This document shows, in pieces, positions 3,001 through 6,000 of a DNA stretch of 18,159 nucleotides (positions are counted from its first letter, which is position 1; each line of letters begins with the position of its first letter). Origin of the DNA: a virus. The stretch lies in the UHGV virus genome UHGV-0178165; one strand, 5' to 3'. The position numbers are program-made.

Positions 3001-6000
3001 CCAGCCTCACAAAGAGCCTCAATATGGTTAATCACGGAGCGTTTGCTAATCTCGCACTGGTCAGCGATATGCTGATATGAAGGCCAGCATTCGCCATTGT
3101 CATTGGCGTTATCGGCAAGTTTAAGCAGAACCAGTTTTCTGAGCGGGTTTCCAACTTTGGCTCCCATTGCCTTCACCATCAGAATCATACTCATTTTTTC
3201 ACCTCCAATTGGTTGTGTTTGTTAATGCTTATTTAAGCATCAGGCGAGCAAACTTCGGCTGGTTACTTCCTGGCTCCAAATTCAAAACCCCAGTCTTTTC
3301 CAGTGCTAAAATGTGACCAATTACTGTCGATCTGCTAATATCGCACTGATAAGCGAGATCTTGATATGAAAACCAGCATTCGCCATTGTCATTGGCGTTA
3401 TCGGCAAGTTTAAGCAGAATCAGTTTTCTTCGCGGGTTCCCAACCTTAGTTCTCATTGCTTTCTCAATCAGAATCATACTCATTGTGTCTTCTCCTGTAA
3501 TTTGTGCTTTCTATTCATGACAGCCAATCATCTTTGCCAGACCGCGCTGGGTAAGCGTTGACAGGTTGATGAGTAAATCAGTTTCTGCGCGATCAATTTC
3601 TCGCTGTGTTGGCTTGCTGTAACTTGCTTGTGTCATTTGTTAATTCACCAATAGTGAATAGTTAGTTGAAAGGTATGCGTGGAAACGCATATAGCCTTAG
3701 TTGGTCAGATATCTTGGAACTCGCTTTTCAGCGACGTAGGACGAATGTCCGTTGTTACAAAGAGCAGTCCCGCTTATTAAGCGGCTTTGTGTTCCGGCGG
3801 GAACACGTCATCAAGACTTACATTTGCGCCTAACTTGTTCAGGTAAGCAACGAGAGCACGGCATGTTTTAAGATCTGGCATGCGACGACCACTTTCCCAA
3901 TGACCGACAGCCGACTGTGTGCATCCAACTGCCTTAGCAAGTATTGTTTGACTGATGCTCACTGACTTTCGATATTTCTTAAGGTTGTTCATATTTCCTT
4001 CCCAACATTGGTAACCACGCTATTATAGTACATCTAGTGCGTTTTTAATGCAAGCAAAAATACCACACTCCAAATCCTGGTGAACCAACCCCAAACCTCC
4101 TGAATCGCATTCTGACGCAATATTTACGCCCACACGTACATTTTAATGTCTGACAGTTGTTTATCTCTCTACAGCGCTTCCTATGGCGTTTAAACGCCAT
4201 TGACGTAACTAATGGTTGCCGAGACCGGCTTTCCGCATGCCTGCACACCAGAATATTTCCTCGAATGCCTTGTCGGTTTCTTCGTGACGGTCAGGAGTTT
4301 TTTCACACTCTGTTCGGACATGTTCGAACATAATGTTTTTAGGTTCATTGACTGGTTCAAAAGAGTGACTGGTTCTGGGTGCAGCTCCTGCACCACCCCC
4401 TAGTGAATCTCCTGCACCACCCTAGTGAATCTCCTGCACCACCCTGGTGAATCTCCTGCACCACCCTGGTGAATCTCCTGCACCACGGGCCAGCTTCTTG
4501 ACGGGCTACAGGGTTTAGGGATTTCACCACTTTTGGTGAAAACTTGGCGCCAACTTTCTTTCCCAAAATATAAATCAATAAAATACATAGAGTTATAAAA
4601 AACTAACCACATTTAGAGTGTTTGTGTTGACTTAATCAACTACGTCCCGTACTATTTAGTCATCAGCAGGAAGCTGGAAGCCAAACGGAACAGACTGGCA
4701 GGCTCTTTAAACAACGTCGAACACTCGACTACGTGGCTGAAAAGCCAGATCACCCAACCACATAAGCTGTGGGATGCAATGCCGAAGCAACCGTCTCAGG
4801 AGGGGCTTCGAGATTGCATCGCCAAAGTTTATTCGGGAGGAATCTATGTCCAGAAAAACAGAATTTAAAGGAACCGCAGCTTCTCGCCGTAGAGCTCGTC
4901 GTGCAAATCTGCAAAGTCAGGAGGCGATCAGCTCCGACAAGCTACACAGGCCAACCCCTTCACGAGTGGTCTTGCAATGCAAGCGCAAACCAGCAATGAG
5001 AGCAGAAGTGATAACTCTGACAACGTTGACCAGAAAATATGAAGGTTCAACTTGTCTTCCAAACGTAGCTCTTTACGCGGCAGGCTACCGGAAATCAAAA
5101 CAACTGACAGCGAGGTAAGTGATGAATCAGACATACATTCCATCATGCTTGAGAAATCTGCCAAAGCAGAAAGCAAAGCCCCGCAAGCAAGCCATAAAGG
5201 ACGCTAAGGCAGAGGTTATTGATCAAGCAATACAATTGCTCAGGGAGGAGTTAAGAAGTGGCAAGCTCGAAGGAATGATGATGCCCTATCAGCGCGGATA
5301 TCTTTCGGCGATTAGTAAGTTGGAAGTATTGAAGAGTGAATTATGAACTATCTGGAATTTCCGGATGGTTCATTGTTTTGGCAGCAAACCACTTGTTTGA
5401 GGACTGATACATGAGAGTAAAAACTATGGGCGTAAGCCCATTAAGTGGTCGTATTTTTCAAGGAACATTAAACACTGAAAAAGGAATGTGGGTAGGAAAG
5501 AAAGAAGATGTAACCGAACAGGCAGTTAAGGCAGTAGCTGAACACATGATGATAAAAGGCCAGAAATATGCATACGGGACGAAGGATGGCAAATGGCTGA
5601 TAATAAGCCATCAAGTGGTTGATAAATTACCAGAAGATTTTATTGCTGATTAAAATTATTTTGGCATAAATAACAGAATAAACACAGCACTGTGTATTCA
5701 TTCCAACGAGTGAATACACGGAGCAATGTCGCTCGTAACTAAACAGGAGCCGACTTGTTCTGATTGTTGGAAATCTTCTTTGCCCTCCAGTGTGAGGGCA
5801 ATTTTAGCACACCATGCAATATGCCATTGCAGGGTGGCCTGTTGCTGGCTGCCCTTCCGAATCTTTACTTGAACGAATCACCCGTAAATTACGTGACGGA
5901 TGGAAAAGAGTTGAGGTCTTATTATGCGCAATGAAATAGCCATCAATCACCAGATGCTTCGTGCTGCACAGAACAAAGCAGTAATAGCCAGATTTATTGG

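What the first reader, a model, noticed from the sequence alone, without database searches (positions are those of the whole stretch)
3229..3636. Truncated cII-like ORF reads in frame, across one TAG, into a stand-alone copy of the initiator HTH domain
Downstream of cro and the nutR-like site, a 41-aa ORF with faint CII-like N-terminal similarity ends at TAG 3513-3511. Nine codons later, in the same frame, the 84-aa HTH paralog starts with its own RBS. The arrangement looks like decayed or recombined lysogeny-establishment and replication genes. The free-standing HTH domain could compete with the full initiator for iteron binding, acting as a replication regulator.
Basis: partly seen in the sequence, partly recalled or inferred. 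Interest (0 to 1): 0.5.

Follow-up and report, generated by a model that had tools for sequence, protein, structure and literature searches.

The report
Dead cII stub plus leftover initiator fragment
In a P22-like phage that has lost its lysogeny genes, a deletion cut the cII gene at codon 41 and joined it to a leftover, diverged first third of a replication-initiator gene that sits just ahead of the intact initiator; this is most likely a recombination scar, not a new regulator.

Summary
On the minus strand, a 41-codon ORF (3636-3511) ends at TAG. Nine codons later, in the same frame, an 84-codon ORF (3483-3229) starts behind an AGGAG ribosome-binding site.

The 41-aa ORF is clearly cII: Pfam Phage_CII E=1.8e-11, and 35/41 residues match phage 24B CII. 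The TAG is the first triplet after a roughly 300-nt deletion junction, so the shared frame is incidental (1 in 3 by chance).

The 84-aa ORF is the 5' part of a second O-type initiator allele. It has the winged-helix domain but no iterons and no C-terminal domain. No orthologue was found at this position in related phages or in any collection searched. It breaks residues that are invariant across the family, including P38F. Its recognition helix lacks the R52-S53 signature shared by all 25 relatives with this phage's iteron type. It also exchanges sequence with the adjacent O gene.

The phage, a metagenome contig seen in 13 assemblies, lacks cI and int/xis. A second complete origin copy sits where cI should be.

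Best reading: scars of lysogeny-module decay and modular recombination in a now-lytic phage (about 0.6). A functional small DNA-binding regulator is not excluded (about 0.27).

The parts
3777..3992 (-). cro-like HTH gene (71 aa), first gene of the rightward early operon
   Evidence: PF01381 HTH_3 E=2.2e-12. About 81% nt identity to the cro/pR region of VT2-Sakai-type phages. Syntenic with cro of 24B.
3717..3768 (-). nutR-like region (boxA TGCTCTTTG, boxB hairpin with GAAAA loop)
   Evidence: Homologous to the annotated nutR of 24B, within the 90%-identical block 3768-3509. The boxB arm 3717-3739 pairs as an inverted repeat with a nutL-like copy at 4729-4751.
3511..3636 (-). cII remnant: the first 41 codons of a 24B/933W-type cII, followed by TAG
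   Evidence: PF05269 Phage_CII E=1.8e-11, profile positions 1-37 of 91. PHROG 191 'CII-like transcriptional activator' E=2.4e-12. 35/41 identical to 24B CII residues 1-41.
3614..3627 (+). TTGCTGTAACTTGC, a TTGC-N6-TTGC box at the position of the CII-binding site of pRE (vestigial)
   Evidence: Pattern match. Two matches against 1.6 expected in the whole window, so only its position inside the 5' end of cII on the opposite strand supports the assignment. Identifying it with pRE rests on knowledge of lambda.
3496..3513 (-). Deletion junction: homology to cII ends at about 3509 and homology to the leader of O-type genes resumes by 3495. The TAG (3513-3511) is created here.
   Evidence: blastn against 24B: window 3768-3509 = locus 2501-2761, and window 3495-3281 = locus 3084-3298. 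The sequences diverge right after CATGAAT. A three-way alignment of O-gene leaders shows TAG/TAA at -30 in all three. About 300 nt are missing relative to 24B: cII codons 42-99 and a small ORF of about 47 codons.
3229..3483 (-). 84-aa ORF (O'84): the N-terminal winged-helix domain of a second, mosaic O-type initiator allele. RBS AGGAG at 3492-3496.
   Evidence: PF13730 HTH_36. PHROGs 'replication initiation O-like', profile positions 1-71 only. Best relatives are 200-300-aa initiators matching residues 1-70 at 71% identity or less. The AlphaFold2 model has mean pLDDT 78 with H-H-strand-H-H plus a beta-hairpin wing. Foldseek hits are generic winged-helix domains. It is mosaic: the first ~140 nt resemble the downstream O, the last ~60 nt resemble 24B O.
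3195..3282 (-). Diverged wing codons 68-84, stop codon and 34-nt spacer. Weakly collinear with the wing and pre-iteron linker of 24B O. It ends in the RBS (GGAGGTG, 3200-3206) of the intact O gene.
   Evidence: No blastn match in phages or E. coli genomes. The local alignment to 24B O at the expected collinear position scores 21 against a shuffle mean of 15.1 (8 of 300 shuffles reach it).
2424..3194 (-). Intact O-type replication initiator (256 aa) with the true origin inside it (four iterons around 2845-2933, AT-rich stretch, palindrome 2778-2797)
   Evidence: HTH_36 E=3.9e-14. PHROG replication initiation hits over the full length. 83.5% nt identity to 24B O. Iterons, palindrome.
4225..4507 (-). 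Second origin copy (ori'): five 22-nt iterons, AT-rich stretch and palindrome 4311-4330. It lies between pL and pR, where cI should be.
   Evidence: the repeat finder families D1 and D2 (220 nt, 98%). blastn gives 96.7% over 242 nt against 2692-2933. Iteron number differs between contigs.

Best explanation
The region is a pair of recombination scars in a P22-like phage that descends from a temperate lambdoid ancestor and has lost its lysogeny module. Shown: a deletion of about 300 nt removed cII from codon 42 through the leader of the next gene. That left a 41-codon cII stub ending at a TAG formed at the junction. Also shown: the gene the stub now abuts is only the first third of an O-type initiator allele. 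This fragment (O'84) has the winged-helix DNA-binding domain but no iterons and no C-terminal domain, and an intact O gene with its own RBS and origin follows it. Inferred: O'84 is what remains of an initiator allele that was displaced when a different O module was recombined in near the domain/iteron boundary. Inferred: it is still transcribed from pR and probably translated, but it no longer does the initiator's job and is drifting. The stub cannot work as CII. It lacks half of the helix-turn-helix and the oligomerisation region, and the genes it would switch on (cI, int) are gone. The common reading frame across the TAG has no role.
For: cII stub. It matches Pfam CII profile positions 1-37 of 91 and is 35/41 identical to 24B CII. 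Homology to 24B stops at 3509 and resumes in the O leader at 3495.

Loss of the lysogeny module. The pL-pR gap is 502 nt, against 2176 nt in VT2-Sakai where cI lies, and holds no repressor ORF. The tailspike gene ends at 10573, only 63 nt from the end of the early-left operon at 10510, with no int/xis. An isolated sewage phage of the same genus, phiKp_30, independently lost most of cI and the 5' part of cII.

O'84 is not a conserved gene. No homologue was found at this position in 50,697 phage records or 5,426 E. coli genomes. IMG/VR and the GTDB genomes had none, and the JGI metagenomes returned only the same contigs. Its 90% cluster has two members. The two other HTH_36-only proteins whose contigs were examined are accidents: a low-coverage frameshift and an IS-disrupted O gene.

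Relaxed or altered constraint. 8 of 36 columns that are at least 90% conserved are changed, against a median of 1 and a maximum of 5 in 124 full-length relatives. P38F and E48D hit columns invariant in 150/150. Changes unique to O'84 are 10 nonsynonymous to 3 synonymous, against 11:13 and 10:8 in the two functional alleles.

Free exchange with the neighbour. Within the lineage the HTH differs by four amino acids between haplotypes. The six underlying nt differences make one haplotype identical to the adjacent O gene, a gene-conversion signature.

Probably not cognate for the iterons. All 25 relatives whose linker encodes this iteron type have R52 and 24 have S53. O'84 has S52-T53.
Against: The ORF is intact for 84 codons and has a good RBS. 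It ends exactly at the end of a predicted complete winged-helix fold. A neutral fragment could keep this by chance; my rough estimate is 0.15-0.5.

The 10:3 nonsynonymous excess is not significant on its own and would also fit positive selection for a new function. No full-length donor allele was found, so some 'unique' substitutions may predate the truncation.

The rarer haplotype (H3) restores four consensus residues, which lowers its deviation count to 6 of 36.

The phage also carries a second complete origin. That raises the possibility that extra DNA-binding domains and extra iterons act together.

Lineage diversity is too low (about 0.2-0.5%) to measure selection directly.
Confidence: 0.6

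Rival explanations
1. O'84 is a functional small winged-helix protein that has taken on a new role from an initiator DNA-binding domain. It would be made early from pR. It would bind iterons or the iteron-like site GGTGCAGGAGCTGCAC present once in each origin, or form mixed dimers with O. The effect would be to tune or limit initiation at the two origins, as a trans-dominant modulator.
For: The ORF is intact, has a strong RBS and a predicted complete winged-helix fold ending at the domain boundary. It is kept in all 13 contigs and three haplotypes. The phage has two full origin copies, so initiator dosage may matter. Ectopic lambda origin copies and origin fragments are known to interfere with lambda replication in trans (PMC4488673, PMC3349717). 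Nonsynonymous-biased change clustered in the HTH could reflect adaptation.
Against: The recognition-helix class does not match this iteron type. The conserved wing residues and invariant P38 are lost in all copies, and invariant E48 in the majority haplotype. There is no orthologue in any other phage. Four HTH residues differ between haplotypes, which argues against tight constraint. The 84 residues contain no region known to mediate dimerisation.
Confidence: 0.27
2. The TAG is read through, by an amber-suppressor host or by programmed readthrough. This would give a 135-aa fusion of the CII N-terminus and the winged-helix domain as the real product.
For: The two ORFs share a frame and are separated by a single TAG plus nine sense codons.
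Against: The frame match is expected one time in three. The TAG is created by the deletion junction rather than conserved. The 84-aa ORF has its own RBS and ATG. No recoding signal was seen and Rfam reports nothing in this region. The CII part would be half an HTH.
Confidence: 0.02
3. The tandem arrangement is a metagenome mis-assembly that joined two phage strains through the repeated initiator sequence.
For: The window contig has only 4x coverage. Several short contigs start and end in the 242-nt origin repeat.
Against: O'84 and the O N-terminus are only about 78-86% identical, too divergent to collapse. The same order is spanned by contigs from different samples and assemblers at 72-414x coverage. 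Small contigs of 1.1-1.6 kb run straight through cro, the cII stub, O'84 and into O.
Confidence: 0.03

Closest known systems
cro-nutR-cII-O region of Stx phage vB_EcoP_24B / 933W-type lambdoid phages (HM208303)
   Same: Same gene order. The nutR-to-cII-codon-41 block is 90% identical, and the O gene is 81-84% identical in the N-terminal part and 94-96% further on.
   Different: 24B has a full 99-aa CII, a small ORF between cII and O, a single O gene, and cI. Here cII stops at codon 41, the small ORF is deleted, an extra O 5' fragment precedes O, and cI is absent.
Klebsiella phage phiKp_30 (LC768498), a 33.7-kb sewage Lederbergvirus isolate
   Same: P22-like phage with a decayed lysogeny module. 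Only an N-terminal stub of cI is left between pL and pR, and cII is partly deleted. cro is 82% identical. It shares the 125-nt palindrome-bearing element found at window 4098-4223.
   Different: phiKp_30 keeps the 3' end of cII rather than the 5' end. It has one O gene and one origin, and its 125-nt element sits upstream of the primase-helicase gene, not upstream of pR.
Interference by ectopic lambda origin copies (PMC4488673) and the oop-iteron 'inhibition phenotype' (PMC3349717)
   Same: Extra copies of iteron DNA, or parts of the replication region, acting in trans on O-dependent initiation.
   Different: Those are plasmid-borne DNA/RNA decoys that block an infecting phage. Here the extra parts are carried by the phage itself, and no binding or interference has been shown.
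Short inhibitory forms of plasmid iteron-binding initiators, e.g. the shorter pi protein of R6K (from my own knowledge, not checked here)
   Same: A shortened version of an iteron-binding initiator coexisting with the full-length protein.
   Different: Those forms come from internal starts in the same gene and keep the cognate DNA-binding surface. O'84 is a separate, diverged allele fragment with a non-matching recognition helix.

Membership tests
Phage CII transcriptional activator (Pfam PF05269, PHROG 191) | Sequence match to the family profile | tested here: met
   44.5 bits against a cutoff of 21.3, E=1.8e-11. PHROG 191 E=2.4e-12. 35/41 identical to 24B CII.
Phage CII transcriptional activator (Pfam PF05269, PHROG 191) | Full-length protein of about 90-100 aa with a complete HTH and the C-terminal oligomerisation region | tested here: not met
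   Only profile positions 1-37 of 91 are present and a stop follows codon 41. It is a gene remnant, not a member with the family's function.
Phage CII transcriptional activator (Pfam PF05269, PHROG 191) | Position between cro/nutR and the replication genes | tested here: met
   Collinear with 24B cro-nutR-cII-O.
Phage CII transcriptional activator (Pfam PF05269, PHROG 191) | Presence of its regulon (pRE driving cI, pI driving int) | tested here: not met
   A TTGC-N6-TTGC box survives at 3614-3627. cI is absent and no int/xis lies between the tailspike gene and the early-left operon.
Lambdoid O-type replication initiator (HTH_36 N-terminal domain, origin inside the gene, C-terminal domain) | N-terminal winged-helix domain (PF13730) | tested here: met
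   E=1.7e-10. Winged-helix model with pLDDT 78. Foldseek matches to winged-helix domains.
Lambdoid O-type replication initiator (HTH_36 N-terminal domain, origin inside the gene, C-terminal domain) | Iteron array / origin encoded inside the gene | tested here: not met
   The ORF ends at 3229. The iterons lie at about 2845-2933 and 4376-4507 only.
Lambdoid O-type replication initiator (HTH_36 N-terminal domain, origin inside the gene, C-terminal domain) | C-terminal domain that recruits the helicase or primase-helicase partner | tested here: not met
   84 aa against 200-390 aa for the relatives. All matches stop at about residue 70.
Lambdoid O-type replication initiator (HTH_36 N-terminal domain, origin inside the gene, C-terminal domain) | Family-invariant residues of the DNA-binding domain | tested here: not met
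   P38F and E48D fall in columns invariant in 150/150. 8 of 36 conserved columns are changed, against a maximum of 5 in 124 full-length relatives.
   None in phage records, E. coli genomes, IMG/VR, GTDB genomes or JGI metagenomes beyond this lineage. Of the other short HTH_36-only proteins listed, the two whose contigs were examined are accidents.
Trans-acting truncated initiator that competes for iterons (functional class) | Same DNA specificity as the full-length initiator | tested here: inconclusive
   Proxy only. The recognition helix has S52-T53, whereas all 25 relatives with this iteron type have R52 and 24 have S53. Actual binding cannot be tested with these tools.

The most novel reading that the evidence does not exclude
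The extra winged-helix protein and the extra origin copy that replaces cI work together as a new control circuit in a formerly temperate, now lytic phage. For example, O'84 might bind the origin copy between the divergent promoters pL and pR to set the timing of early transcription or of initiation. Alternatively, O'84 might act as a poison subunit that limits firing of two closely spaced origins.
Probability: 0.1. Interest if true: 0.6.

Novelty: new member of a known kind. Interest (0 to 1): 0.25.

Why it matters
In itself this is an ordinary case of how mosaic phages carry gene stubs at recombination joints. It documents base by base how a temperate P22-like phage became lytic: cI and int/xis are lost, cII is cut, and cIII and a pRE-like box are left behind. 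That is useful for annotation, because the two small ORFs should not be called 'CII' and 'replication protein'. It is also useful to anyone judging whether such phages are safe for therapy. It would matter more if the leftover DNA-binding domain and the duplicated origin turned out to act on replication control, because that would be a natural experiment in initiator dosage and decoys.

Tried and rejected
1. The word-indexed protein search returned only the query's own cluster. The full HMMER scan was therefore used for relatives.

2. Searches for a full-length donor allele of O'84, or for any other genome with the 86-nt segment 3195-3281, all came back empty or returned the same contigs. These were IMG/VR peptide patterns, a 26-mer in GTDB genomes, JGI metagenomes, and blastn against phages and E. 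coli. The polarity of the unusual substitutions therefore stays open.

3. The idea that short HTH_36-only proteins form a family was rejected. P0133 is a low-coverage frameshift and P0082 is an IS-interrupted O gene. The other short sequences have unrelated, garbled C-termini.

4. Selection within the lineage could not be measured. The cII stub shows no variation at all, and O'84 varies only by the six-nucleotide patch.

5. Promoter/terminator and Rfam scans gave nothing specific for 3229-3636.

6. A single-event history that would make O'84 and ori' the two halves of one split O gene (tandem duplication, or Campbell-type insertion of a dv-like circle) was considered. I could not make it fit the observed order, so it is left open.

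7. Phage EC.P3 was checked as a possible intermediate, but it has an ordinary cI-cro-cII arrangement.

8. Papers on virulent P22-like phages describe intact lysogeny genes (UAB_Phi20, PMC4837284; CurroJimenez, bioRxiv 10.1101/2024.09.12.612763). They are not precedents for this deletion pattern.
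Full report
**Source and layout**

The window is ENA metagenome contig ERZ1034763 NODE_473. It belongs to a P22-like (Lederbergvirus-type) phage. On the minus strand it carries the rightward early operon:
- pR at about 4025-4053
- cro at 3992-3777
- a nutR-like site
- the 41-codon ORF at 3636-3511
- the 84-codon ORF at 3483-3229
- a 256-aa O-type initiator at 3194-2424
- a toprim primase-helicase gene that runs off the left end

The leftward operon starts at pL (TTGACT-17-TACTAT, 4627-4655) with an N-type antiterminator.

**Observation**

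Translating 3636..3229 on the minus strand gives 41 codons, TAG, nine codons, then the 84-codon ORF, all in one frame. AGGAG lies 8 nt before the second ATG. Both ORFs have significant family matches: Phage_CII at E=1.8e-11 and HTH_36 at E=1.7e-10. The same arrangement is present in 13 contigs from several sample series. These include spanning contigs at 72-414x coverage built by different assemblers. It is real sequence, not a mis-assembly.

**The cII stub**

The 41 residues are 35/41 identical to the first 41 residues of the 99-aa CII of Stx phage 24B. At the DNA level, window 3768-3509 is 90% identical to 24B from nutR to cII codon 41-42. Homology then jumps to the leader of the 24B O gene, with window 3495-3281 matching 24B locus 3084-3298. 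Read side by side, the two sequences agree up to CATGAAT and then diverge. The next triplet, TAG, belongs to the O-gene leader, which reads TAA in the two other O leaders compared.

So a deletion of about 300 nt removed cII codons 42-99 and a small ORF of about 47 codons, and created the stop. The common frame with the next ORF is a one-in-three accident of that deletion. A TTGC-N6-TTGC box sits at 3614-3627 on the opposite strand, where lambda has the CII site of pRE. The assignment is by position only, since the pattern count is not above chance.

**The 84-aa ORF**

It matches initiator families only over their first ~70 positions. In a scan of 1.84 billion representative proteins, the best matches are 200-390-aa initiators aligned over residues 1-70 at no more than 71% identity.

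Its DNA is mosaic. The first ~140 nt resemble the downstream O gene and the last ~60 nt resemble 24B O. Clear nucleotide homology ends at codon 67. Codons 68-84 and the 34-nt spacer align only weakly with the wing and pre-iteron linker of 24B O, but collinearly (score 21 against a shuffle mean of 15.1; 8 of 300 shuffles reach it). This tail has no blastn match in phages or E. coli genomes.

A single-sequence AlphaFold2 model (pLDDT 78) gives a complete winged helix with a beta-hairpin wing. Its Foldseek matches are generic winged-helix DNA-binding domains, including plasmid initiator N-domains. The ORF therefore encodes the DNA-binding domain of an O allele and stops just before the point where the iterons would begin.

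**Is it a conserved gene?**

No. Nothing like it occupies this position in 50,697 phage records or 5,426 complete E. coli genomes. There the query maps as two pieces, cII 5' and O 5', about 300 nt further apart. IMG/VR, the GTDB species genomes and the JGI metagenomes add nothing beyond the same contigs. Several other HTH_36-only proteins turned up in the scan. The two whose contigs were examined are a low-coverage frameshift and an O gene cut by an insertion sequence.

**Constraint**

- Against 150 relatives, O'84 changes P38 and E48, both invariant in 150/150. It also changes I43, V22 and M6, and the wing residues R72, S76 and N77.
- It departs from 8 of 36 columns that are at least 90% conserved. 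The 124 full-length relatives have a median of 1 and a maximum of 5.
- Changes unique to O'84, relative to the two nearest alleles, are 10 nonsynonymous to 3 synonymous. The functional alleles show 11:13 and 10:8. The numbers are small, so this is suggestive only.
- A second haplotype (two contigs, L022 and L023) reads QHIADQCE where the window reads QDLAYQCD. All six underlying nucleotide differences make it identical to the adjacent O gene, including one synonymous site. That is the signature of short-tract gene conversion between the two copies, or of a clustered change in the majority haplotype. The direction is unresolved. Either way, four residues of the HTH differ within a lineage that is otherwise 99.5% identical.

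**Would it bind the iterons?**

The iterons here are GGTGCAGGAGATTCAC repeats, which encode VVQEIH/GAGDS in the O linker. Among the relatives, all 25 whose linker encodes this type have R52 in the recognition helix, and 24 of them have S53. O'84 has S52-T53, the pattern of 24B-type alleles whose iterons differ. This is a correlation among related sequences, not a binding test. Together with the lost wing residues, it argues against simple competition with O.

**Context**

- The distance between the pL-homologous and pR-homologous blocks is 502 nt. It is 2176 nt in VT2-Sakai, where cI lies.
- In place of cI there are 68 nt of unknown origin, then a second copy of the origin: five iterons, an AT-rich stretch and a palindrome, 96.7% identical to the true one over 242 nt.
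- Next comes a 125-nt element with an 18-nt perfect palindrome. In phage phiKp_30 this element sits just upstream of the primase-helicase gene.
- The tailspike gene ends 63 nt from the end of the early-left operon, with no integrase or excisionase.
- cIII and its RNA thermosensor are still present.

The phage is therefore a lytic descendant of a temperate ancestor, and the cII stub is part of a general loss of the lysogeny module. phiKp_30, an isolated phage of the same genus, shows an independent version of the same decay.

**Mechanism and weighing**

Most likely (about 0.6), the two ORFs are scars. The cII stub is dead. O'84 is the 5' remnant of an initiator allele displaced by modular recombination near the domain/iteron boundary. 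It is still expressed from pR but is free to drift and to exchange sequence with its neighbour.

The main rival (about 0.27) is that O'84 has been kept as a small DNA-binding protein that modulates initiation, perhaps in connection with the duplicated origin. In its favour are the intact ORF, the RBS, the complete fold and the known sensitivity of lambda replication to extra origin copies (PMC4488673, PMC3349717). Against it are the helix mismatch, the lost invariant residues, the lack of orthologues and the polymorphic HTH. Readthrough fusion (0.02) and mis-assembly (0.03) are unlikely.

**Novelty**

This is a new example of known processes: lysogeny-module decay, mosaic joints and partial paralogues. 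The second origin in place of cI is the more unusual feature, and it lies outside the finding's coordinates.

Noticed in passing
window 4225-4507 (with flanks 4098-4564): A second, apparently complete copy of the replication origin sits between pL and pR exactly where cI should be, in direct orientation 1.53 kb from the true origin. It has five 22-nt iterons, an AT-rich stretch and the palindrome TGTTCGGACATGTTCGAACA, and is 96.7% identical over 242 nt to the origin inside O.
   Followed up: partly
window 4063-4565 and 10510-10573: The phage has no cI repressor (pL-pR gap 502 nt against about 2.2 kb in VT2-Sakai) and no int/xis (tailspike gene end abuts the end of the early-left operon). It is a lytic derivative of a temperate P22-like phage, found at high coverage in several metagenomes.
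   Followed up: partly
window 3340-3361; loci L022 6001-6255 and L023 861-1115: Two contigs carry a variant of the 84-aa ORF (QHIADQCE instead of QDLAYQCD). All six nucleotide differences match the adjacent O gene. This indicates short-tract gene conversion between the paralogues, or a clustered mutation in the majority haplotype.
   Followed up: yes
window 3913-3914 (cro codon 27) and 4036, 4041 (pR spacer): The haplotypes differ by Cro S27G, at the start of the predicted recognition helix, together with one or two changes in the pR spacer. This may be co-variation of Cro and its operator.
   Followed up: no
window 5804-5859 and 5814-5939 (+): The Rfam Lambda_thermo element (cIII thermoregulator, 65.7 bits) and a 41-aa cIII ORF are retained, although their beneficiary CII is truncated.
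   Followed up: no
window 4098-4223; phiKp_30 locus L016 3972-4096: A 125-nt element containing the perfect palindrome ATGGCGTTTAAACGCCAT lies upstream of pR here. In phiKp_30 it lies immediately upstream of the primase-helicase gene. It is absent from this window's own O-P spacer. It may be a small mobile or regulatory module.
   Followed up: partly
window 4376-4507; loci L002, L003, L005, L006: The iteron number and sequence in the extra origin differ between contigs (for example one extra repeat unit in L003). Several 1.5-1.65-kb contigs begin and end inside the 242-nt repeat. This is either real heterogeneity or assembler behaviour at the direct repeat.
   Followed up: partly
window 2313-2420 (-): A 35-aa ORF (MKSKIKSLLVAGYNHGWLSISFVDFWFKNLNLRES) lies between O and the primase-helicase gene. 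Its 3' end is also present in phiKp_30.
   Followed up: no
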